From positions 1 through 58,236 of the forward strand of contig JAJYVZ010000001.1 in the NCBI GenBank assembly GCA_021791725.1: a DNA stretch of 58,236 nucleotides. Reading direction: 5' to 3'. The notes beneath the pieces were generated by a model. It was not told where the DNA came from. It was given only the letters and a program-made list of their open reading frames with translations, and did no database searches. The stretch is from Candidatus Micrarchaeota archaeon. GTDB taxonomy: Archaea > Micrarchaeota > Micrarchaeia > Micrarchaeales > CABMGC01. The position numbers and the translations under genes were made by a program. How positions within the stretch are numbered: position 1 is the first letter of the stretch; the number at the start of each line of letters is the position of its first letter. Below, one piece after another: positions 7,895-46,347 of this stretch.

Positions 7895-8100
7895 TAAGAC
7901 CGTGAGCGGGAAATCCCACACCCTCTTCAGAGAGTTCCCTTCAGGGGTGGGATGAAGTAAAGCTGTTGAAAACAATGCCAGGAAGAACTGAGAACCGATA
8001 AAACACATCCTTTGCGGGATGCAGTGATTGCATGAACGCAGAGGAAGCCCACACCGTTTACGGGTGGGAGAATGTCACGAAAAGGATAAATAACCAAGCC
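7895..8100. ncRNA. Candidate structured RNA or long structured leader with two homologous bulged hairpins; strand unresolved
   Basis: Hairpin A is 7913-7953 (AUCCCAC-A-CCC ... GGG-GUGGGAU). Hairpin B is 8048-8068 (CCCAC-A-CCG UUUA CGG-GUGGG). Both have purine-rich GGAA/GA flanks and sit in a 278-nt spacer that holds only three short overlapping minus-strand ORFs (about 67 aa each), none convincing. Confidence 0.3.
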
Positions 8101-8144
8101 GTCAACATTTAAAGCAAAACGGTGTTTTGCGTACGGAACGTGTA

Positions 8145-8660
8145 ATGATCTTCATAGATGGCAGCAATTTCTACTACGGGCTTAAGGCAGAAGCTGGCAA
8201 GACCGAACTAGACCTTGAAAAATTCGGGCGGACTTTATGCACCGACCGAAGACAGCTCACACGAATTTATTACTACAATGCCCCATTGGATCAGAACCAG
8301 AATCCAGAAAGATACAAGAGCCAGCAAAAATGGTTTGATAAAGTAAGAAACACGCCAAATACCACCCTTGTTCTGGCAAAAATGAAGAAGAGGCACAACA
8401 AAGACGGGAAGATGGAATACTACGTAAAAGGAGACGACATACACATAGCCGTTGACATGCTAAAACTTGCATATAACGATGCTTATGACACGGCGATATT
8501 GGTAAGCGGTGACGGAGATTTTTACCCTGCAATAAGGGCTGTCAAAGAAAAGGGCAAGAAAGTTGAAAACGCTTATTTTGCATCGAATAGGTCTTCGCTT
8601 CTTGGTCAGGAATGCGACAGAAGTGTGAATATAATACAATTCATAAAAGACTGTTTCTGA
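8145..8660 (+). CDS. NYN-domain (LabA/DUF88-like) predicted ribonuclease
   Basis: MIFIDGSNFYYG..., GDDIHIAVDML..., and DTAILVSGDGDFYPAIRAVKEKGKKV match the NYN/LabA acidic-residue pattern. I use the ATG start; the track ORF starts at TTG 8127. Confidence 0.8.
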   Translation: MIFIDGSNFYYGLKAEAGKTELDLEKFGRTLCTDRRQLTRIYYYNAPLDQNQNPERYKSQQKWFDKVRNTPNTTLVLAKMKKRHNKDGKMEYYVKGDDIHIAVDMLKLAYNDAYDTAILVSGDGDFYPAIRAVKEKGKKVENAYFASNRSSLLGQECDRSVNIIQFIKDCF

Positions 8661-8842
8661 CCAAATAAAAAGGCCTAACGTTGGCGAACCAACGATAGGG
8701 AACATATAATATCATTATGATATACAAGATATTTAAACCTTATCTCTCCCGGGAGATTGGGACAAACGTCTTCATTGCCTCCCTGCCAAAATTCTTGCAC
8801 AACTTATAAATATAGATACTTCCAATTTAAATTTTAGATTGA

Positions 8843-9424
8843 GTGGAATCAAGGGAATTCAAGGAACTGGCAAGGAAAAATTCGAGGCCCGCCGACTCAA
8901 ACGAGGCATCCGGCGCGCCAGAGACGATAAGCTACAACATATGCGTACTGATCGATAACGACAAACTTCTCCTAAAATTCGCGAACAGGGGCATAAGCAA
9001 GGGGAAATGGAACTTTCCAGGAGGCCACGTAGAGGAAGGGGAGACGCTTGAGGAAAGCGTGATAAGGGAGATAAGGGAAGAGACCGGGCTTGTGCTTGAA
9101 CAAGAAAGTCTTTTCTATCACGGCAAGATAGACAAGACCATCAATTCGGACAACACCCTCCACAGGATCCACGTATTCTCTTCGAGATCCTTCACCGGCA
9201 GAATAAGGGATTCAGAAGAGGGCGCGCTGATGTGGTTTGATAAGAAATCATTGCCGGAAGGCGAGATGTGGAAGGACGCGAAGCTGTGGATCGACCATAT
9301 ATACAAATCTAGAAAATTCGATGTCGATATAGCGCAGGACAATTACGATGACAGCACAGTTAAGAGTAGCCATGTCAGGGTAAACGTGCCAATTGCCGAA
9401 AAGAAGAAAAAGATCCGAAATTGA
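8843..9424 (+). CDS. NUDIX hydrolase
   Basis: Nudix box GGHVEEGETLEESVIREIREETGL. GTG start. Confidence 0.85.
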   Translation: MESREFKELARKNSRPADSNEASGAPETISYNICVLIDNDKLLLKFANRGISKGKWNFPGGHVEEGETLEESVIREIREETGLVLEQESLFYHGKIDKTINSDNTLHRIHVFSSRSFTGRIRDSEEGALMWFDKKSLPEGEMWKDAKLWIDHIYKSRKFDVDIAQDNYDDSTVKSSHVRVNVPIAEKKKKIRN

Positions 9425-9438
9425 GCCGCACACCGAAC

Positions 9439-10749
9439 TTACAGCGTGAACTGCTCCCCAATCCTTGGCAGGTGGGTCTTGTACTTCTCCTTCAACGCGT
9501 CATTGAACTGCCTTGACTTTGCGGGCTCTCCGTGCACTATGAATATATTCTCCAATCCGTTTATGCTTTCCACGAACCTCTCGAGCTGCTGCCTGTCTGC
9601 GTGCGCCGAAAGATGGTAAGTCTCGACCTCGAGATTCACCGGAACCTTGCGTCCGTTTATGTCAAGCTCCTTCTTCCCGTCCTGCAGGTCCCTTCCTCTC
9701 GTTCCTTCCACCTGATATCCTACAAGCATCATCTTGTTCTCCGTATATCTTCCAAGCCTTTCCAGGTATCTCAGCACAGGCCCTCCGTTCAGCATTCCGC
9801 TGGTCGTGACTATGATGCACGATTCCTGCGAATTCATTATCTTCCTGCGCATCTGGTTCGAAGTCACGTCGAAGAAGTTCTTGCTCTTGAACGGGTCGTC
9901 CTCGCTCATGAGTATCCTCTTCTGCAGCTCCTCCCTGCAGTATATTACGTTGTGCCTGTGTATCCTCAGGGCCTTGTTTATCATGCCGTCTGTGTATATC
10001 GGTATATGAGGCAGCGATCCGGAATGCATGTAATCGTCAAGGGTGAGCATTATCTCCTGACTCCTTCCAACCCCGAAGCTGGGTATTATCACCTTGCCTC
10101 CCTGCTTGACCGTCTCCTTTATGCTGCTCACCATGTCTGTCGTTATCTTCTTCTCCGTGGGAAATATGTCATTGTCCCCCCCGTAAGTGCTCTCGGTTAT
10201 AAGCGTGCGCGCATGCAGGTTCTCGCGCGGTGCAGGATCAAGGATCTTCGACATCCCGAAGTTTATATCGCCAGTGTATATGAGGCTCTCCCTTCCGTCA
10301 CTTACCTCTATTATGGAGCTTCCCAGGATATGCCCCGCCTTCTGGAGCTTTACCGTAAGGTCCTTTATCCTGAATTCTTCGTTGAACTCCGCCATCTTGG
10401 AGTTCCTCTGCATCTTAAGCACACCGTCCCTAGTGACGTCCTTAGGGTTGGATATCTTCAGGTAATCGCTTATTATCACGTTTCCGAGCTCGAAAGTCGG
10501 CTTCGTGAGGTACGTGGGGCCTTCCCATCCTCCGGAATATATGTGCGGCAGGAATCCGATGTGGTCAAGGTGCGCGTGAGTGACCACTATCCCATCCACA
10601 TCCTTGAGTTCATGCTTTTCTATGGTTGGATATGCGATTGGATCGCCAATCTTCACTCCAGAGTCCAGCAGGATCTTCGTATTTCCGCTCTCTATCATTA
10701 TGCAGCTCCTTCCAACTTCTTCAGCCGCTCCAAAAAATTTTAATATCAA
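9439..10749 (-). CDS. Metallo-beta-lactamase / beta-CASP family RNase (aCPSF2-like)
   Basis: EEVGRSCIMIE, VVTHAHLDHIGFLP (HxHxDH), and a C-terminal HLSAHADRQQL plus IFIVHGE beta-CASP motif. Length about 430 aa. Confidence 0.85.
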   Translation of the reverse strand: MILKFFGAAEEVGRSCIMIESGNTKILLDSGVKIGDPIAYPTIEKHELKDVDGIVVTHAHLDHIGFLPHIYSGGWEGPTYLTKPTFELGNVIISDYLKISNPKDVTRDGVLKMQRNSKMAEFNEEFRIKDLTVKLQKAGHILGSSIIEVSDGRESLIYTGDINFGMSKILDPAPRENLHARTLITESTYGGDNDIFPTEKKITTDMVSSIKETVKQGGKVIIPSFGVGRSQEIMLTLDDYMHSGSLPHIPIYTDGMINKALRIHRHNVIYCREELQKRILMSEDDPFKSKNFFDVTSNQMRRKIMNSQESCIIVTTSGMLNGGPVLRYLERLGRYTENKMMLVGYQVEGTRGRDLQDGKKELDINGRKVPVNLEVETYHLSAHADRQQLERFVESINGLENIFIVHGEPAKSRQFNDALKEKYKTHLPRIGEQFTL

Positions 10750-11415
10750 TCAAACACCTAGTTGTGCGCCACCGCCCCTGGCGTCTTCCTTCTGTATTTC
10801 GTCAATGCTGGCTGCACTGGGGCGGCTCTTCTTCTTTATGACCGCAATGTCCTCAAGGCTTATGCTCATCGGCCCCTGTTCCTCGTGCCTCTGCGGCTTC
10901 CTCTCATCATGAACCCTCCTAGACCTGTCTATGCTCCTCAGCTCCGAATACAGGTCATCGAGTCTTTTGTGGTTCTCCTCAATCTTCTTATCGAGCTCGT
11001 CTATCTCCTTGTTGAGGCTGACTGTGTCGTCCTTGAGAAAATTAATTCTCCTCTTCATCCTGAATATTTTTATCGCGCCGTCTATCTGAGAGTCTATGTC
11101 GTTTATCTCTCTGATTATCTCCTTCTCCGCCCCCAGGCTTCTTGTCTCGGTGGATATCCTGAACTCGAGCTTGTCCTTCATCCTCCTAAGCCTGCCTATG
11201 TTCGGTCCCCTGCCTGCGCTCTCTGACTGCTTTGAAAGCGCCTCGAGTTCTGCTTCCTTGTACTTGAGCAGCTTTCTCTTCTTCTTTATGCTTATTATAA
11301 TGTCTATCCTCTTTTTCTTCTCCTCTTCTATGAGCCTGTTGAGCTCTATTATTCTTCCCTCCTTGGGGCTTGGCTTTGCCCCATTCTGAACAGGCGCCCC
11401 GTTGTTGGTATCCAC
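10750..11415 (-). CDS. Coiled-coil protein (archaeal coiled-coil family-like)
   Basis: Heptad-rich and charged (KEIDELDKKIEENHKRLDDLYSELR). Its stop abuts the start of the beta-CASP gene, suggesting an operon. Confidence 0.6.
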   Translation of the reverse strand: MDTNNGAPVQNGAKPSPKEGRIIELNRLIEEEKKKRIDIIISIKKKRKLLKYKEAELEALSKQSESAGRGPNIGRLRRMKDKLEFRISTETRSLGAEKEIIREINDIDSQIDGAIKIFRMKRRINFLKDDTVSLNKEIDELDKKIEENHKRLDDLYSELRSIDRSRRVHDERKPQRHEEQGPMSISLEDIAVIKKKSRPSAASIDEIQKEDARGGGAQLGV

Positions 11416-11433
11416 TGCATCCCTTATCTATTA

Positions 11434-12603
11434 TCATTTCTCGTTAGAGGCAACTAGCCTATAAATGCTAAGCATTTTATCCGTAACCTTCTCCAAAGAA
11501 AAGTTCTGCGCCGTTTTAACGGCACTCTGATAATAGGCCCCATCATTATTTAAGACTTTCTCTATCTTTCCAGCGCAGGCCGCAGGATTCATAGGATCGA
11601 ACTTCTCGCCATTTCTCCCATTCTTTATCAGTTCCCTAAGCGCAAGGCTGTCCGCCCCTATCACCGGCTTTCCAAGAGCCATTGCCTCAAGAGCTACGAC
11701 TCCCTGCGTCTCGAACGTCGACGGTATGCAAAACGCGTCGCATGCCGCATAATAATCCGGCAGTTCCGCCTTATCCACGAAGCCCACGAACCTTACGTTG
11801 CCGAGACTAAGCCTGTCTGCATAGTTCCTGTAATATTCGTATGCAGGGCCCGTGCCTCCTATAATAAATTTTATATCCTTCCTAGATCTCCCGAGCCTGT
11901 GAGCTGCAAGAAGCAGGGTTTCTATCCTCTTCTCTCGGCTCGTCCTTCCTATGTATAGCACCAATTTCTCCCTGCTGCGCACTCCAAGGCTCTTCCTCAC
12001 GCGCTCGCCGTCAGCGTTCTTGTCGTTGAACACCGACAGGTCTATGCCGTTTGGCACCACGTGCGTGTTCTTTATCTTCATACGCCTCAGCATCCTCTCT
12101 ATCGTGCCTGTCGGCGCGACAGTTGCGTCGCATCTATTGTAGAACAGGCGCAGATACGCCTTCACCGACCTGTTTGCGAAGAACTTGAAGACGCGTATGT
12201 TCGGATAGTAATTCTCCATTATGCTCTTGTCGTTAACGAGCGTATGGTACGACCCTACTATCGGCTTTCCGGAGAACTTGGCGGCCACTATGGCAGCAAG
12301 GCCCATTGGCGCAGGCGTCTGCGCATGTATAAGATCTATCTTGTTTGCCATTACCCTGAAAACAGACGCATAAGGGAAGACAGCAACCTTGTATTGCGGA
12401 TAAGGCTTGAAATCGAAGCCTTCTACTATGAACACCTTTTTGTTCCCGTACTTCCTCTTTGTCCTGGCGGTGCCGCTGGCGAATATATATACCTCATGGC
12501 CTCTCCTCTCAAGCTCTTTCTTAAGCCCAAGCATTGACGTTACAACGCCATCGACGGCAGGCAGATAAGAATCGGAGTAGAACGCTATCTTCAGCTTGTC
12601 CAT
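11434..12603 (-). CDS. Glycosyltransferase, GT4 family
   Basis: The N-terminus reads KIAFYSDSYLPAVDGVV. The C-terminal PSTFETQGVVALEAMALGKPVIG contains the E-x7-E region. Confidence 0.85.
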   Translation of the reverse strand: MDKLKIAFYSDSYLPAVDGVVTSMLGLKKELERRGHEVYIFASGTARTKRKYGNKKVFIVEGFDFKPYPQYKVAVFPYASVFRVMANKIDLIHAQTPAPMGLAAIVAAKFSGKPIVGSYHTLVNDKSIMENYYPNIRVFKFFANRSVKAYLRLFYNRCDATVAPTGTIERMLRRMKIKNTHVVPNGIDLSVFNDKNADGERVRKSLGVRSREKLVLYIGRTSREKRIETLLLAAHRLGRSRKDIKFIIGGTGPAYEYYRNYADRLSLGNVRFVGFVDKAELPDYYAACDAFCIPSTFETQGVVALEAMALGKPVIGADSLALRELIKNGRNGEKFDPMNPAACAGKIEKVLNNDGAYYQSAVKTAQNFSLEKVTDKMLSIYRLVASNEK

Positions 12604-42833: not shown

Positions 42834-43838
42834 TCATCTCTCGCTCTTTGCGGCCCAGTATGCCTCATCCGAGATGGCAAGCATCCTGTCTGCCTCTCTC
42901 TCAGCATCGGCAATGTCCTTGAAATAGAATGACAGAACATAGGTCATGGAGGAATCGGCCATCTGGACGAGCTTCACCTCGGGAACGTGGCTCTCCTTTG
43001 CCTGCATGCCTGCCTTACCGTACTCTGAACCTATCTTCTTGGCTAACATGCTCTTAAACCTTGAGGACCTGACGTCGCGCCTTATGCTTATGCTCATGTT
43101 GTAATTATACAGCCCTTCCTGGTCGGGCTCCAGTTTTGTTATAATGGTGCTGTTCAGCAGTATAGTGTTTGGTATCTTTGTTATCGAACCGTGCAATACG
43201 CGTATCTGGGTGAAGACCGGGCCCACCTGCCTGACTCTGCCAAACTTAGGATTTGCCACACCCCAGACCCAGGAATCGAGGACCACCATATCTCCCGCCT
43301 TGAGATTCCTAGATGTGGTTATCAGGGCACCGGAGAGCACTATTGGGGTTATGGTCTGCAATGCAAGGCCCGCTACTACACCGCCCACTGCTCCTCCGAC
43401 CAGGAGATTCTGAATGCTGACCCCAAGAATGGAGAGTATTATGGCCATAAGTATAAGGAAAGCCAGTATCTGGAACGTAGACTTCAGGATACCTGGTTTT
43501 GGCATGCCTTTTTTGTATATGAACCTGTCGACAATGTGCGTTATCGTCCTTATAAGCACAAAGCCCACAGAGAATCCTGTCACTATTATGGCTATGTCGT
43601 AGAAATAAGCAACGTATCCGGAGAGGCCATGGAAGGCGTTTGCCTGTAGGTACTGCACAACAAGATACATCAGAAACGCAAGCACTGTTATCGATACGGC
43701 AACCTCCCATTCCTTCAATATGGCTCTTTTGGAGTTCTCGTGTGGCATATAGTAAGATATCCATATAAGATTTATATATCGTGCGTCTTCTGTTGATTGA
43801 AGGCGCGTAAAGTTTGAGGTTTCGTCGAACGCTTCCAA
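42834..43838 (-). CDS. MscS-family mechanosensitive channel
   Basis: TM segments are followed by LKAGDMVVLDS...GRVRQVGPVFTQIRVLHGSITKIPNTILLNSTIITK. TTG start, with an alternative ATG at 43748. Confidence 0.8.
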   Translation of the reverse strand: MEAFDETSNFTRLQSTEDARYINLIWISYYMPHENSKRAILKEWEVAVSITVLAFLMYLVVQYLQANAFHGLSGYVAYFYDIAIIVTGFSVGFVLIRTITHIVDRFIYKKGMPKPGILKSTFQILAFLILMAIILSILGVSIQNLLVGGAVGGVVAGLALQTITPIVLSGALITTSRNLKAGDMVVLDSWVWGVANPKFGRVRQVGPVFTQIRVLHGSITKIPNTILLNSTIITKLEPDQEGLYNYNMSISIRRDVRSSRFKSMLAKKIGSEYGKAGMQAKESHVPEVKLVQMADSSMTYVLSFYFKDIADAEREADRMLAISDEAYWAAKSER

Positions 43839-43842
43839 GTGC

Positions 43843-43912
43843 TAGGATAATGGAAGAGATAGGGGGGATAGCGGGTTCTGCATGCCTGCGAAGCCCTGTC
43901 CCAGAGGCGATG
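43843..43912. repeat. 70-bp direct repeat, copy 1 (identical to 45355-45424)
   Basis: Letter-by-letter identical: TAGGATAATGGAAGAGATAGGGGGGATAGCGGGTTCTGCATGCCTGCGAAGCCCTGTCCCAGAGGCGATG. It contains the long imperfect hairpin GGGATAG-C-GG-G-TTC ... GAA-G-CC-CTGTCCC. Confidence 0.95.
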
Positions 43913-43984
43913 CGCGCTGGAGAGTACCGGCTTCCCTACTATCCGGAGTTAAGGAAATGCACAGAATTACATTATCCTTAGTGT

Positions 43985-44031
43985 GTTAGTATAGTAATAC
44001 ACAAAATATAAATATGTATTAGTGTACTAAT
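43985..44031 (+). promoter_or_regulatory. A/T-rich TATA-like box flanked by an imperfect 16-nt inverted repeat upstream of the ATPase gene
   Basis: GTTAGTATAGTAATAC (43985-44000) and GTATTAGTGTACTAAT (44016-44031) match 13 of 16 as an inverted repeat. They flank AAAATATAAATAT, and the ATG is at 44038. Confidence 0.35.
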
Positions 44032-44037
44032 ATACAT

Positions 44038-45354
44038 ATGGAAGGACATATTATTGAAGAGATAATTGAAGAATTTGAAAAAGATCCGCTGCCCAAGTTT
44101 ATTAAAAGAGAACTGGACATACCTCTTAATTCCACCAGGGCAGTGACAATAATAGGGCTTAGACGATCCGGCAAGACTTTTTACCTATACCAGACCATTG
44201 AAAAACTGCTTAATGAAGGGATAGATAAAAGCAGGATAATTTACATAAATTTTGAGGATGAAAGGCTACTTGATTTCAAAACAGAGGATTTCACAAAAAT
44301 TATAGAGCTTTACCACAAAAGAAACCAAGACGGGAAGATAGGCTATCTCTTTTTTGACGAGATCCAGAACATCCGTGGCTGGGAAACGTTTATAAGGAGA
44401 ATTCTGGAAAAAGGGAAGTTTAGGATCTTTATTACCGGTTCCTCAGCAAAACTTCTCAGTGCGGAGATAGCCACTGGGCTCAGGGGAAGAAGTCTTTCTT
44501 TTCATCTCCTTCCTCTCTCCTTTAAGGAATTTTTAGCATTGCGAGACGGCAAACACAAAGCCCCCTTTACCGAGAAAGGCAAAGGCGCCCTGGGAAAACT
44601 GCTTGAAGAATATATGGCTTTTGGCGGATTCCCCGAAGTAGGCACATTTGAAAAAGAACTGAGGATAAGGCTTCTCAGTGACTATCTCGATATGATAATT
44701 TATAGGGATATAGTTGAAAGATATGAGGTGAAACGGTTAAATGCGCTTAAATTTCTTATAAAAACCCTTTCTGCCAATTATGCAAAGGAACTTTCATTGA
44801 GAAAATTGTATAACTTCTTTGTATCTTCTGGTAAGAGATTGGGGAAAAGCAAGCTATATGAATACTTTTCATATCTGGAAGATATTGGCTTTGTATTCCT
44901 TTTAAGAAAATTCGGATACGGAATAAGGGAGACCGAGGGAAGCATTCCCAAAGCATATATATCAGACACAGGATTTGCCGCTGTCGCGGGAGACGCGGAT
45001 AGGTCAAGACTGCTTGAGAACATAGTAGCACAAGAACTGTTAAGGAAAAGATATTACTGGAATCCACTGGAAGAAATTTTTTATTGGAAAGATATTAATG
45101 GGTGGGAAGTCGATTTTGTAGTAAAAGAAAAAAGGGACGTAAAGCAAATAATACAAGTGGTATATGCTGTTAGCGACCCGAATACAATGGAAAGAGAAAC
45201 CAGGTCTTTGGTAAAGGCTAGCAAAGAACTTAAGTGTAGCAATGCGCTAGTAATCACTTTTGATTATGAAGGAAGAAAAAATAAGGACGATCTTGATATC
45301 GCTTTTGTTCCGTTATGGAAATGGCTATTAGAATCACATGAAACTTCCCATTGA
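44038..45354 (+). CDS. AAA-family ATPase with DUF4143-type C-terminal domain (COG1373-like)
   Basis: IIGLRRSGKTF Walker A, YLFFDEIQ Walker B, a C-terminal EVDFVV... restriction-endonuclease-like segment. Length about 440 aa. Confidence 0.85.
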   Translation: MEGHIIEEIIEEFEKDPLPKFIKRELDIPLNSTRAVTIIGLRRSGKTFYLYQTIEKLLNEGIDKSRIIYINFEDERLLDFKTEDFTKIIELYHKRNQDGKIGYLFFDEIQNIRGWETFIRRILEKGKFRIFITGSSAKLLSAEIATGLRGRSLSFHLLPLSFKEFLALRDGKHKAPFTEKGKGALGKLLEEYMAFGGFPEVGTFEKELRIRLLSDYLDMIIYRDIVERYEVKRLNALKFLIKTLSANYAKELSLRKLYNFFVSSGKRLGKSKLYEYFSYLEDIGFVFLLRKFGYGIRETEGSIPKAYISDTGFAAVAGDADRSRLLENIVAQELLRKRYYWNPLEEIFYWKDINGWEVDFVVKEKRDVKQIIQVVYAVSDPNTMERETRSLVKASKELKCSNALVITFDYEGRKNKDDLDIAFVPLWKWLLESHETSH

Positions 45355-45424
45355 TAGGATAATGGAAGAGATAGGGGGGATAGCGGGTTCTGCATGCCTG
45401 CGAAGCCCTGTCCCAGAGGCGATG
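45355..45424. repeat. 70-bp direct repeat, copy 2 (identical to 43843-43912)
   Basis: It starts on the base after the ATPase stop codon. About 15 further bp show degenerate similarity (GGAGAGTA[C/T]C[G/A]G). Confidence 0.95.
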
Positions 45425-45600
45425 AGGGAGAGTATCAGATTTTGAATAAGAAACTTACGGCCGCATGTACCAACAGGCCATTGGCTTATGCGCGGCACCT
45501 GTTGAGGTTCAGCCGTTGCCGCATATGCTTTGGGCACAGCTCCCACCCGGCCAGACGGCAATGTTCCTGCGGTCCGGATGCAACTCCGGCCTGCCTATCT
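45369..45600 (-). ncRNA. Candidate structured RNA, possibly a reduced RNase P RNA
   Basis: This is a GC-rich spacer. The ends are complementary: AGAUAGG at the 5' end and CCUAUCU at the 3' end. GCAGAACCCGCUAU (45393-45380) resembles CR-V. AUA-U-GCGG (45526-45519) can pair with CCGCUAU in a P4-like geometry with a bulged U. There are several internal hairpins. CR-I is not conserved, so identity is uncertain. Confidence 0.35.
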
Positions 45601-45969
45601 GAGCCTGCCCTTTCTTGTCAGCGTGAAGACTTTGACGTTCTTCTCCCTTAGCCTTTTCCTGAGCCCTGTGTCATTGGTGCATACGCCCATGCCCCTTCTC
45701 TGTGCATTCCTCAGCATCCACGAATCTGCGCTGCCAAGCCTATCGCTCCCGCTTCCTCTTATTATCATGCCATCATGGCCTGATATGTCTGACAGCGCAG
45801 TCCTGGCATATTTTGCGTACTTTCCAGTGCCGTTGCCTATTCCGGCCAGCTCCCGTATGACGCATTCGGGGATCATCGGCGCCATGCCCTCGGATCGCAC
45901 TATGCCGAAGATGTTTATGTGGTTTGAGAATCCGAAGATTATCGAGCTTGTGTCTATTACGATATCCAT
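45595..45969 (-). CDS. PIN-domain nuclease (Fcf1/Utp24-like)
   Basis: MDIVIDTSSII at the N-terminus and a C-terminal VCTNDTGLRKRLREKNVKVFTL pattern. Confidence 0.7.
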   Translation of the reverse strand: MDIVIDTSSIIFGFSNHINIFGIVRSEGMAPMIPECVIRELAGIGNGTGKYAKYARTALSDISGHDGMIIRGSGSDRLGSADSWMLRNAQRRGMGVCTNDTGLRKRLREKNVKVFTLTRKGRLR

Positions 45970-46110
45970 TATGACCTTTCTTTTACCTAAAGAAAGAGAA
46001 TTTATAAATAAATATTTAAATCTTTTTATATAAAATAGTTCAGTCCGTAATGAGAGTTAGTATTATCTCCTTGCTTCAAATTCTAACATTGCAGTCTTAA
46101 CGGTGTATGC

Positions 46111-46347
46111 TTGGCTTCCGAGATAGAACATGAACTGGTACCTTTGCACAAGATTCTTAGTGACAAGGAAGCCAATGACGTCCTTGGCGAACTCGGCATA
46201 AACAGGGATCAGCTTCCAAAGATATTCGATACAGACCCGCAGGCGAAGAAGCTTGGGGCGGTGAACGGGCAGATGATAAGGATAAACAGGGAGGACAATG
46301 GAAAGAAATATGCCTACTACAGGATTGTGGTAAAGGCATATTCCTAA
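46111..46347 (+). CDS. rpoH: RNA polymerase subunit Rpo5 (RpoH)
   Basis: HELVPLHKILSDKEANDVL...LPKI...DPQAKKLGA..GQMIRI.R. TTG start. First gene of the RNAP operon. Confidence 0.9.
   Translation: MASEIEHELVPLHKILSDKEANDVLGELGINRDQLPKIFDTDPQAKKLGAVNGQMIRINREDNGKKYAYYRIVVKAYS

What the first reader, a model, noticed from the sequence alone, without database searches (positions are those of the whole stretch)
43843..45424. Perfect 70-bp direct repeats bracketing a single DUF4143-type AAA ATPase gene
Positions 43843-43912 and 45355-45424 are identical over 70 bp, with about 15 more bp of degenerate similarity on the right side of each copy. Between them lie only a 125-bp promoter region and one ATPase gene. 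The promoter region has a TATA-like box flanked by an imperfect 16-nt inverted repeat. The ATPase stop codon abuts repeat copy 2.

The repeat contains a long imperfect hairpin. In the opposite orientation it forms the 3' end of the GC-rich structured RNA candidate at 45369-45600. The layout is an intact RNA gene, a cargo gene, and then a duplicated RNA 3' end. That is the classic footprint of site-specific integration into a stable-RNA gene, but no integrase or transposase is present.

Alternative explanations are a decayed or integrase-less cassette, a mobilised ATPase gene, or a dispersed REP/MITE-like element.
Basis: seen in the sequence. Interest (0 to 1): 0.6.

Follow-up and report, generated by a model that had tools for sequence, protein, structure and literature searches.

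The report
Repeat-flanked one-gene defence cassette insertion
A foreign gene for a candidate antiviral ATPase sits in a tiny archaeon's genome between two copies of about 95 bases of the host's own spacer DNA, an insertion scar that also turns up around many relatives of this gene and hints at how such genes spread without carrying a recombinase.

Summary
Positions 43843-43912 and 45355-45424 are identical over 70 bp. Weaker similarity widens the repeat to about 95/91 bp (43832-43926 and 45344-45434). It has only these two copies in the 795-kb genome.

Between the copies lie a 111-bp AT-rich promoter/operator region and one 438-aa AAA_14+DUF4143 ATPase gene. This gene matches the PADLOC defence candidate PDC-S01 (E 1e-107).

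The insert looks foreign. Its GC3 is 0.37, against 0.58-0.67 in neighbouring genes. Its nearest homologues (52-58% identity) include named euryarchaeal proteins, while the best match in its own family is 43% or less. The repeat itself has host-like GC.

The arrangement is present in every metagenome contig that spans the site. I saw no empty site and no second context.

The "stable-RNA gene target" idea is not supported. There is no Rfam or tRNA hit, RNase P and SRP RNAs lie elsewhere, and folding is no better than shuffled sequence.

My best reading is a single-gene defence cassette inserted with a long target duplication and now fixed. Bracketing repeats occur at 17 of 56 homologue loci across genomes, against 2 of 86 shifted controls. 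In related Micrarchaeota, repeat-bounded cassettes are 98% identical between genomes whose core flank is 83% identical, and their order is permuted.

How the insertion happened remains inferred.

The parts
43832..43926 (.). Direct repeat copy 1. The perfect core is 43843-43912. It lies about 85 nt upstream of the MscS-like gene's start, on the other strand. Its GC (0.57 in the core) is host-like.
43927..44037 (+). The cassette's own 5' region (GC 0.32). It holds a TATA-like box at about 44003-44014 and two related imperfect palindromes: 43981-44001 / 44015-44035, and 44012-44023 / 44026-44037. The second palindrome runs into the ATG. The box-to-ATG spacing fits a leaderless mRNA and an operator (inferred).
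44038..45354 (+). 438-aa AAA_14 + DUF4143 ATPase, matching PADLOC PDC-S01. GC3 is 0.37. Walker A (GLRRSGKT) and Walker B (FFDEIQ) motifs are present. The C-terminal PD-(D/E)XK-like module reads EVDF...IQVVY, without the usual lysine, as in its closest 120 homologues.
45344..45434 (.). Direct repeat copy 2. The perfect core is 45355-45424. Its degenerate left edge overlaps the last 11 nt of the ATPase ORF, including the stop codon.
45439..45455 (.). AT-rich patch GATTTTGAATAAGAAAC, with T-tracts on both strands. It is a possible terminator for the ATPase on the + strand and for the PIN gene on the - strand (inferred from sequence only).
   Evidence: the terminator scan did not flag it
45456..45594 (.). 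GC-rich (0.63) non-coding block of unknown nature between the PIN stop and repeat copy 2. It has no family match, no excess folding stability, and is not an rpoE remnant.
42834..43748 (-). Left flanking host gene: MscS-like channel, 304 aa from ATG 43748. A TATA-like ATATATAAAT lies about 25-35 nt upstream of that ATG.
45595..45969 (-). Right flanking host gene: PIN_9 / Fcf1-like protein, 124 aa, followed on the other strand by rpoH and rpoB''.

Best explanation
A 1.42-kb foreign cassette (about 43927-45343) was inserted into the spacer between the PIN gene and the MscS-like gene. The cassette consists of its own promoter, palindromic operator-like sites and one PDC-S01-type AAA_14/DUF4143 ATPase gene.

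The event duplicated about 95 bp of native spacer DNA, so one copy now sits on each side. This is an 'insertion with long target duplication'. The insertion is old enough to be fixed in the species.

The perfect 70-bp core with frayed edges is best explained in one of two ways. Either the two copies keep homogenising each other by gene conversion, or the original recombination joined two similar but not identical copies.

**How the duplication arose is inferred, not shown.** I think the most likely route is a circular cassette that carried one copy of the target and recombined with the chromosomal target by a single crossover. Host homologous recombination or a recombinase acting in trans could do this.

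**Function.** The gene itself most likely acts as a defence or conflict ATPase with a DNA-binding, nuclease-derived C-terminal module. Its function has not been tested.
For: **Shown: the insert is foreign.**
- ATPase GC3 is 0.37 and the cassette 5' region has GC 0.32. Neighbouring genes have GC3 0.58-0.67. The repeat core (0.57) and the adjoining block (0.63) are host-like.
- Nearest non-self homologues are 52-58% identical. Those that carry names are Methanosarcinales, Thermoplasmata, Aciduliprofundum and Pyrococcus proteins. The best match in 118 genomes of the window's own family is 43% or less.

**Shown: the repeat is unique to this locus.** Two copies in the genome, none found elsewhere.

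**Shown: no mobility gene in the unit**.

**Shown: the same footprint recurs.**
- 17 of 56 testable homologue loci across GTDB genomes have bracketing direct repeats, against 2 of 86 shifted control intervals (Fisher p = 2e-6).
- 10 of 29 loci in the same archaeal family have them, against 8 of 161 windows of the own genome (p = 3e-5).
- The geometry matches. The upstream copy usually ends about 95-150 nt before the ATG. The downstream copy often starts close to the stop. In the focal locus these values are 111 and -11.

**Shown: such units move.**
- In genomes G112 and G116, repeat-bounded ATPase and AbiE cassettes are 98.3-98.4% identical. The adjoining core DNA is 83% identical, and the cassette order is swapped.
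- A second 1.5-kb ATPase block is 94-98% identical in four genomes with different neighbours.

**Shown: target origin of such repeats in the same genome.** On contig C15, a 212-bp repeat is the promoter plus 5' end of the RFC small-subunit gene. It brackets a low-GC ORF.

**Published analogue.** Insertion with long target duplication of restriction-modification genes (PMC2853133).
Against: - No empty site is available. All 15 contigs read for the PIN protein and all 12 read for the MscS-like protein are filled or end in the unit. No same-genus relative exists. So the target origin of the repeat rests on composition only.
- Differences between the two copies cluster at the edges, which a simple duplication followed by drift does not predict.
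- In relatives of genera g15 and g26, the repeats travel with the cassettes and occur in arrays. There the repeat behaves as a recombination site rather than a one-off target copy, and the focal repeat might be of that kind.
- One strain (L024) has 17 differences packed into 43893-43948, at the junction of copy 1 and the cassette. I cannot explain this.
Confidence: 0.66

Rival explanations
1. The repeat is a cassette-borne recombination site, and the locus is a one-cassette version of the repeat-bounded cassette arrays seen in related Micrarchaeota. These arrays are integron- or CALIN-like in layout. Cassette plus site would excise as a circle and re-insert at another copy of the site, using a recombinase encoded elsewhere or homologous recombination.
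For: - Related genomes have arrays of 3 to 5 copies of a genus-specific repeat of about 60 nt. These bound DUF4143, AbiEii and ATPase_2 cassettes, with swapped order and 98% cassette identity against 83% in the core.
- In those arrays the repeat starts 0-3 nt after the upstream ORF's stop, as it does here.
- The focal repeat holds an imperfect hairpin, and in copy 2 its two ends can pair.
- Integrons and clusters of attC sites without an integrase are reported in Archaea (PMC9668308).
Against: - The focal repeat has only two copies and bounds one cassette.
- It lacks the attC end motifs RYYYAAC and GTTRRRY on either strand (read directly).
- The own genome shows only a weak tyrosine-recombinase match of 20 bits.
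- In the g15 arrays, repeat variants travel with the upstream cassette up to the repeat's right edge, not up to a G|TT site.
- Folding of the repeats as attC-like hairpins is inconsistent.
- The repeat's GC is that of host DNA, not of the cassette.
Confidence: 0.17
2. This is site-specific integration into the 3' end of a stable-RNA gene (45369-45600, minus strand). An element that has lost its integrase left a duplicated RNA 3' end.
For: - The layout resembles attL/attR around tRNA-targeting elements.
- The block next to copy 2 is unusually GC-rich for a spacer (0.63).
- The same genome does have tRNA-linked cases. A toxin-antitoxin pair lies at tRNA-Asp with a 135-bp repeat, and tRNA-Arg fragments surround another DUF4143 gene plus VapBC.
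Against: - No Rfam family or tRNA is found in 43600-46200, even at E up to 10.
- RNase P and SRP RNAs are found elsewhere.
- Folding z-scores lie between -0.3 and +0.6.
- No DNA match in 60 relatives beyond weak short hits (E 0.002 or worse).
- No promoter-like AT-rich box precedes the block, and a T-rich patch separates the block from the repeat.
Confidence: 0.07
3. The ATPase protein itself drives the insertion. The cassette would be an autonomous one-gene mobile element whose AAA+ / HTH / nuclease-like protein binds its own palindromes and makes the long duplication.
For: - Bracketing repeats are strongly enriched around this gene family in both domains of life.
- The cassette has sharp limits: about 110-150 nt upstream of the ATG, and the stop codon.
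- Palindromes overlap the promoter and the ATG.
- The C-terminal domain derives from a nuclease fold (PMC3424549).
Against: - In the same genome, cassettes without this ATPase carry the same kind of repeat: AbiEi/AbiEii, a YafQ-like toxin pair, and an unknown ORF in the RFC 5' end.
- AbiE and ATPase_2 cassettes share arrays with it in relatives.
- The nuclease-like motif lacks the catalytic lysine throughout the clade.
- No terminal inverted repeats are present.
Confidence: 0.08
4. This is an assembly artefact or a chance local duplication unrelated to the arrival of the gene.
For: The genome is a metagenome-assembled bin in 54 contigs. Several short contigs break at the repeat.
Against: - At least four independent assemblies with k = 141 or other pipelines span both copies.
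- Strain-specific SNPs distinguish the copies.
- The compositional boundary coincides with the repeat edges.
- The same geometry recurs in many genomes.
Confidence: 0.02

Closest known systems
Insertion with long target duplication of restriction-modification gene units (Nobusato et al. 2000, cited as reference 37 in Furuta, Abe and Kobayashi 2010, PMC2853133)
   Same: A small defence-type gene unit with no mobility gene. It is bracketed by direct repeats longer than 30 bp that are unique in the genome. The insert's GC differs from the host's. Repeat length varies from case to case.
   Different: The cargo is a PDC-S01 ATPase, not an RM system. The host is a DPANN archaeon; that survey reports that no archaeal RM case survived its selection. 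No empty-site genome is available here to prove that the repeat is the target.
PDC-S01, the PADLOC single-gene 'phage defence candidate' (AAA_14 + DUF4143; COG1373)
   Same: The protein matches the PDC-S01 model over its full length (E 1e-107). PMC12988326 describes the family as abundant in Archaea and transferred many times between the domains.
   Different: That literature, as far as I read it, treats the family as a defence candidate and does not describe flanking duplications. Antiviral activity is untested for this protein.
Integron gene cassettes and clusters of attC sites lacking an integrase, including those reported in Archaea (PMC9668308)
   Same: An ORF is followed directly by a repeat with an imperfect hairpin. 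[quoted passage not shown] In related Micrarchaeota the repeats form arrays with shuffled cassettes.
   Different: The focal repeat has no RYYYAAC / GTTRRRY ends. No integron integrase was found. There is only one cassette. The cassette carries its own promoter.
attL/attR repeats of integrase-mediated islands that integrate into tRNA or gene ends
   Same: Direct repeats bracket foreign DNA. The same genome holds true tRNA-linked examples.
   Different: There is no tRNA or other recognisable RNA gene at the site, no integrase or integrase fragment, and only 1.4 kb of cargo.

Membership tests
Insertion with long target duplication (criteria of PMC2853133) | Inserted segment shorter than 20 kb and without integrase or transposase genes | tested here: met
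   1.42 kb with one ORF, carrying AAA_14 + DUF4143 only
Insertion with long target duplication (criteria of PMC2853133) | Flanking direct repeats longer than 30 bp | tested here: met
   70 bp exact, about 95 bp in all
Insertion with long target duplication (criteria of PMC2853133) | The repeat is not a multi-copy element of the genome | tested here: met
   Two copies in 795 kb. A core 22-mer found none in the metagenome or genome collections, though near-identical records may be left out of those scans.
Insertion with long target duplication (criteria of PMC2853133) | A related genome without the insert carries one copy of the repeat at the same site | not testable with these tools
   Every contig that reaches the site is filled. 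There is no same-genus genome.
PDC-S01 (PADLOC) | Full-length match to the family's profile, with AAA_14 followed by DUF4143 | tested here: met
   PDLC04787 E 1.2e-107, residues 25-433. Pfam AAA_14 E 1e-37 and DUF4143 E 7e-19.
PDC-S01 (PADLOC) | Protects against viruses | not testable with these tools
Integron cassette / attC cluster | Site with inverted R''/R' cores (RYYYAAC ... GTTRRRY) closing an imperfect hairpin | tested here: not met
   The only GTT lies mid-repeat (GGGTTCT), and there is no matching AAC core at either end on either strand. The hairpin is internal. The IntegronFinder attC model could not be run.
Integron cassette / attC cluster | An integron integrase in the genome, or at least two attC sites within 4 kb | tested here: inconclusive
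   The genome has only a 20-bit Phage_integrase match, but it is 86% complete. There are two repeats 1.5 kb apart, but their attC nature is not shown.
Integration into a stable-RNA gene | The repeat is part of a recognisable tRNA or other RNA gene | tested here: not met
   No hits from ARAGORN or Rfam at gathering or at E up to 10. RNase P and SRP RNAs are elsewhere.
Integration into a stable-RNA gene | An integrase gene or fragment at one end of the insert | tested here: not met
   The ATPase is the only ORF.
REP / MITE-type dispersed repeat | Many copies scattered through the genome | tested here: not met
   Two copies
Transposon with target-site duplication | Terminal inverted repeats, a transposase, and a short fixed-length duplication | tested here: not met
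   No inverted repeats at the unit's ends, no transposase, and a duplication of 70-95 bp.

The most novel reading that the evidence does not exclude
PDC-S01 cassettes (own promoter plus one AAA_14/DUF4143 gene), and perhaps other small defence and toxin cassettes of DPANN archaea, would spread by a recombinase-poor pathway not yet described. In this reading the cassette leaves as a circle carrying one copy of a long flanking repeat. It then re-enters at the matching sequence of another genome, building repeat-bounded arrays. A bolder variant is that the ATPase-nuclease-like protein itself catalyses the step that first creates the long duplication.
Probability: 0.2. Interest if true: 0.75.

Novelty: new member of a known kind. 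Interest (0 to 1): 0.45.

Why it matters
PMC12988326 reports PDC-S01 as the fourth most common defence system across prokaryotes, especially abundant in Archaea and transferred repeatedly between the two domains. I did not find a description of how a lone gene with no recombinase moves.

This locus shows that the gene often sits between long duplications of host DNA, and so do its relatives (30% of testable loci against 2% of controls). That footprint was so far published for restriction-modification genes of bacteria.

In related Micrarchaeota the same units are 98% identical between species whose core DNA is 83% identical, and they change order. So they are exchanged.

The same genome also has this footprint around AbiE, a toxin-antitoxin pair and an unknown ORF. 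That points to a general insertion route for small conflict genes in very small archaeal genomes, rather than a property of the ATPase alone.

For this particular locus the event is old and fixed. On its own, it is an ordinary example of the pattern.

Tried and rejected
**RNA gene at 45369-45600.**
- Rfam at gathering and at E up to 10, and ARAGORN, found nothing.
- RNase P and SRP RNAs were located elsewhere.
- Folds on both strands and of sub-parts are no better than shuffles.
- Rejected as unsupported, though a new small RNA cannot be excluded.

**Remnant of rpoE.** Relatives have PIN-rpoE-spt4. tblastn of two RpoE proteins found nothing in the block or convincingly in the genome. Rejected.

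**Dispersed repeat.** BLAST against the own genome and an exact 22-mer scan of the metagenome and genome collections found only the two copies.

**Empty site or other context.** I looked up the exact ATPase, a strain variant, the PIN protein and the MscS-like protein. Every contig has the same arrangement. One search repeated by mistake, because the variant was synonymous.

**DNA conservation in 60 relatives**: only weak short matches (E 0.002 or worse).

**Integron reading.** I checked for attC end motifs and folds in the focal repeat and in the g15 repeat family, and for tyrosine recombinases. Two of the recombinase ORFs in relatives begin with tRNA-like sequence, as integrases next to tRNA genes do; I did not test them against an integron-integrase model. 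The attC model itself was not available.

**Shared motif among repeat families.** YGAAGC occurs in the focal, g15 and g26 repeats (focal GCGAAGCC). It is absent from several other repeats, so I did not pursue it.

**Sequencing-run tools.** They were closed, so circular junctions and excision reads could not be sought.

**First script.** A fuzzy regex search timed out and was replaced by BLAST.
Full report
**1. The observation**

Positions 43843-43912 and 45355-45424 are identical over 70 bp.

A gapped alignment widens the repeat to 43832-43926 versus 45344-45434:
- On the left, 8 of 11 bases match.
- On the right there is one mismatch and a 4-nt indel, followed by GGAGAGTA in both copies.
- Further out, the flanks align no better than shuffled sequence.

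Between the perfect cores lie 125 bp and one ORF, 44038-45354, whose TGA abuts copy 2.

The promoter region has a TATA-like box between 21-nt inverted arms. A second palindrome ends in the ATG.

The repeat is not an artefact. At least four independent assemblies span both copies, and in some strains one copy carries private changes.

**2. The organism and the neighbours**

The genome bin is 795 kb in 54 contigs, 86% complete. A genome of the same family bears the title Candidatus Micrarchaeota (L154 is the same 1664-bp contig as L053).

The layout around the unit is:
- Left: an MscS-like gene on the minus strand (42834-43748), with its own TATA-like box.
- Right: a GC-rich 139-bp block, then a PIN_9 gene on the minus strand, then rpoH and rpoB''.

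In other genera the PIN gene is followed by rpoE and spt4. So gene order here has been rearranged, and no close relative shares this context.

**3. The gene**

The ORF is a 438-aa AAA_14 + DUF4143 protein.
- It matches the PADLOC candidate PDC-S01 over its whole length (E 1e-107).
- No solved structure matches by sequence.
- PMC12988326 describes PDC-S01 as an untested single-gene defence candidate. It is an ATPase fused to a PD-(D/E)XK-superfamily domain, very common, enriched in Archaea and often transferred between domains.
- In this protein and its 120 closest homologues, the nuclease-like motif reads EVDF ... IQV(C/A/V)Y. The usual lysine is absent.

**4. The insert is foreign; the repeat is not**

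- The gene has GC3 of 0.37 and its 5' region has GC of 0.32.
- The neighbouring genes have GC3 of 0.58-0.67.
- The repeat core (0.57) and the adjoining block (0.63) look like host DNA.
- The nearest non-self homologues are 52-58% identical. Those with names come from Methanosarcinales, Thermoplasmata, Aciduliprofundum and Pyrococcus.
- The best match in 118 genomes of the window's own family is 43% or less. The six paralogues in the same genome reach 41% at most.

**5. Copy number and population state**

- The repeat has two copies in the genome.
- A 22-mer from its core found nothing in the metagenome or genome collections. Near-identical records may be left out of those scans.
- Look-ups of the ATPase, the PIN protein and the MscS-like protein returned more than 25 contigs from several studies. 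Each one that reaches the site carries the ATPase between the two repeats.
- Short Logan contigs break at the repeat edges, as expected for k = 31.

The insertion is therefore fixed. Nothing suggests present-day movement at this locus.

One strain (L024) has 17 differences packed into 43893-43948, the junction of copy 1 and the cassette. The rest of the aligned 1.9 kb has only four. I cannot explain this patch.

**6. The RNA-gene idea**

- Rfam at gathering thresholds and at E up to 10, and ARAGORN, find nothing between 43600 and 46200.
- The genome's RNase P RNA (92 bits, contig C6) and SRP RNA (contig C27) are elsewhere.
- Minimum free energies of 45340-45610, of the repeat and of the GC-rich block, on both strands, do not differ from dinucleotide shuffles.
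- The block is not a remnant of rpoE.
- An AT-rich patch with T-tracts on both strands (45439-45455) lies between the block and the repeat. This argues against one RNA spanning both.

The block remains unexplained. The claim that the repeat is the 3' end of a stable-RNA gene has no support.

**7. The same footprint elsewhere**

*(a) In the same genome*, a self-comparison finds other short, high-identity repeat pairs that bracket low-GC accessory genes:
- 212 bp on C15. This repeat is the promoter plus 5' end of the RFC small-subunit gene, so it is clearly host-derived. It surrounds an unknown 290-aa ORF.
- 50 bp on C33, around AbiEi/AbiEii.
- 135 bp on C36, around a YafQ-like toxin pair at the 3' end of tRNA-Asp.
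- 29 bp on C34.
- tRNA-Arg fragments on C45, around another DUF4143 gene plus a toxin-antitoxin pair.

*(b) In the same family*, 10 of 29 homologue loci have bracketing repeats, against 8 of 161 windows of the own genome. Most of those 8 are paralogue pairs (p = 3e-5).

*(c) Across GTDB genomes* of bacteria and archaea, 17 of 56 testable loci have them, against 2 of 86 same-sized intervals shifted by 3 kb (p = 2e-6). With three low-complexity cases removed it is 14 of 56 (p = 4e-5).

The geometry is constant across these cases:
- The upstream copy usually ends about 95-150 nt before the ATG.
- The downstream copy often starts close to the stop.
- The focal values are 111 and -11.
- The repeats differ in sequence from locus to locus and sometimes include a neighbour's end or a gene junction.

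**8. Such units move**

In genomes G112 and G116 of one genus, a repeat of about 60 nt occurs 9 and 8 times. It forms arrays that bound DUF4143, AbiEii and ATPase_2 cassettes.
- The ATPase and AbiE cassettes are 98.3-98.4% identical between the two genomes.
- The adjoining core DNA is 83% identical.
- The two cassettes stand in opposite order.

A second 1.5-kb ATPase block is 94-98% identical in four genomes where at least one neighbour differs. Its repeat has 1 to 4 copies per genome in the six genomes searched.

These arrays look like integron cassette arrays in layout. However, the repeats do not show consistent attC ends or folds. Repeat variants travel with the upstream cassette up to the repeat's right edge. 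Two of the tyrosine-recombinase ORFs inspected in these genomes begin with tRNA-like sequence, as integrases beside tRNA genes do; none was tested against an integron-integrase model.

**9. Reading**

The locus is one more case of a PDC-S01 cassette bracketed by a long duplication. The published analogue is 'insertion with long target duplication' of restriction-modification genes in bacteria (PMC2853133). That survey reports no archaeal case.

Four of the five criteria I could list are met. The fifth, an empty site with one copy, cannot be tested here.

The way the duplication arises is unknown, both in the literature and here. A clean core with frayed edges is common among the repeat pairs I aligned. 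That pattern fits continuing gene conversion between the copies. It also fits a crossover between two similar but non-identical sequences, as in single-crossover integration of a circle that carries a copy of the target.

Cassettes without the ATPase show the same footprint in this genome. So I think a general route is more likely than an ATPase-driven one.

**10. Earlier notes of this scan**

A word search returned eight follow-ups, out of 21 findings, that describe the same pattern around DUF4143 genes in other genomes. I treated them as leads. The enrichment, the geometry and the arrays were re-measured here on independent loci.

**11. Verdict**

The locus itself is a fixed, ordinary member of a recurrent pattern that I did not find described for this gene family. 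Interest is moderate.

Noticed in passing
window 45456-45594: A 139-bp non-coding block with GC 0.63 lies between the PIN stop and repeat copy 2. It has no family match, no excess folding stability and no similarity elsewhere in the genome. On the minus strand it holds a 7-bp stem (CAACAGG / CCTGTTG) followed by GTACA. Its nature is unknown.
   Followed up: partly
L024 (ena:ERZ27237019:k141_70061), equivalent to window 43893-43948: One strain has 17 differences, including a 6-nt deletion, within 55 bp at the junction of repeat copy 1 and the cassette. The rest of the aligned 1.9 kb has only four. This looks like a short import from a diverged source. The source was not found.
   Followed up: partly
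own genome contig C15, 9274-9485 and 10401-10611: A 212-bp direct repeat (93% identical) is the promoter plus first codons of the RFC small-subunit gene. It brackets a 290-aa ORF with GC 0.35 and no Pfam match. The upstream copy is a truncated pseudo-start of RFC.
   Followed up: partly
own genome contig C36, 14598-14732 and 15350-15484: A 135-bp direct repeat (97% identical) brackets a YafQ/ParE-like toxin gene and a DUF2683 gene. The downstream copy overlaps the last 23 nt of tRNA-Asp.
   Followed up: partly
own genome contig C33, 1103-1152 and 2410-2457: A 50-bp direct repeat (94% identical) surrounds an AbiEi/AbiEii pair. The copies partly overlap coding sequence.
   Followed up: no
L011 (own genome C45, about 8100-11500): tRNA-Arg is followed by at least two tandem fragments of tRNA 3' ends. 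Then come another DUF4143 ATPase gene and a PIN-type toxin pair, and then one more tRNA 3' fragment. This looks like the remains of repeated integration at one tRNA gene.
   Followed up: partly
L075 (G112:C21:1-6000) and L076 (G116:C29:13000-16600): Arrays of a GC-rich repeat of about 60 nt (consensus CCTCACGCCACGCTCCCGAAGCTGAAGCCTGGCATCACGCCGTTGGGCGGGCAGGCGCG) bound DUF4143 and AbiEii cassettes. The cassettes are 98% identical between two species whose core DNA is 83% identical, and their order is swapped. ATPase_2 cassettes bounded by the same repeat lie on other contigs (L078, L079).
   Followed up: partly
window 45595-45969 and relatives L034-L040: In other genera of the order the PIN_9 gene heads a PIN-rpoE-spt4 cluster. 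Here it stands next to rpoH-rpoB instead, and no rpoE was found in the 86%-complete genome.
   Followed up: partly
ATPase residues 357-376 (window about 45106-45165): The PD-(D/E)XK-like motif of this clade reads EVDF ... IQV(C/A/V)Y. The usual catalytic lysine is absent in nearly all of the 120 closest homologues. The domain may bind DNA rather than cut it.
   Followed up: partly
L095 (ena:ERZ27237444:k141_406613) bases 1-79: The first 79 bases of this contig are an inverted copy of window 43644-43722. This is most likely a hairpin-type assembly artefact at the contig end.
   Followed up: no
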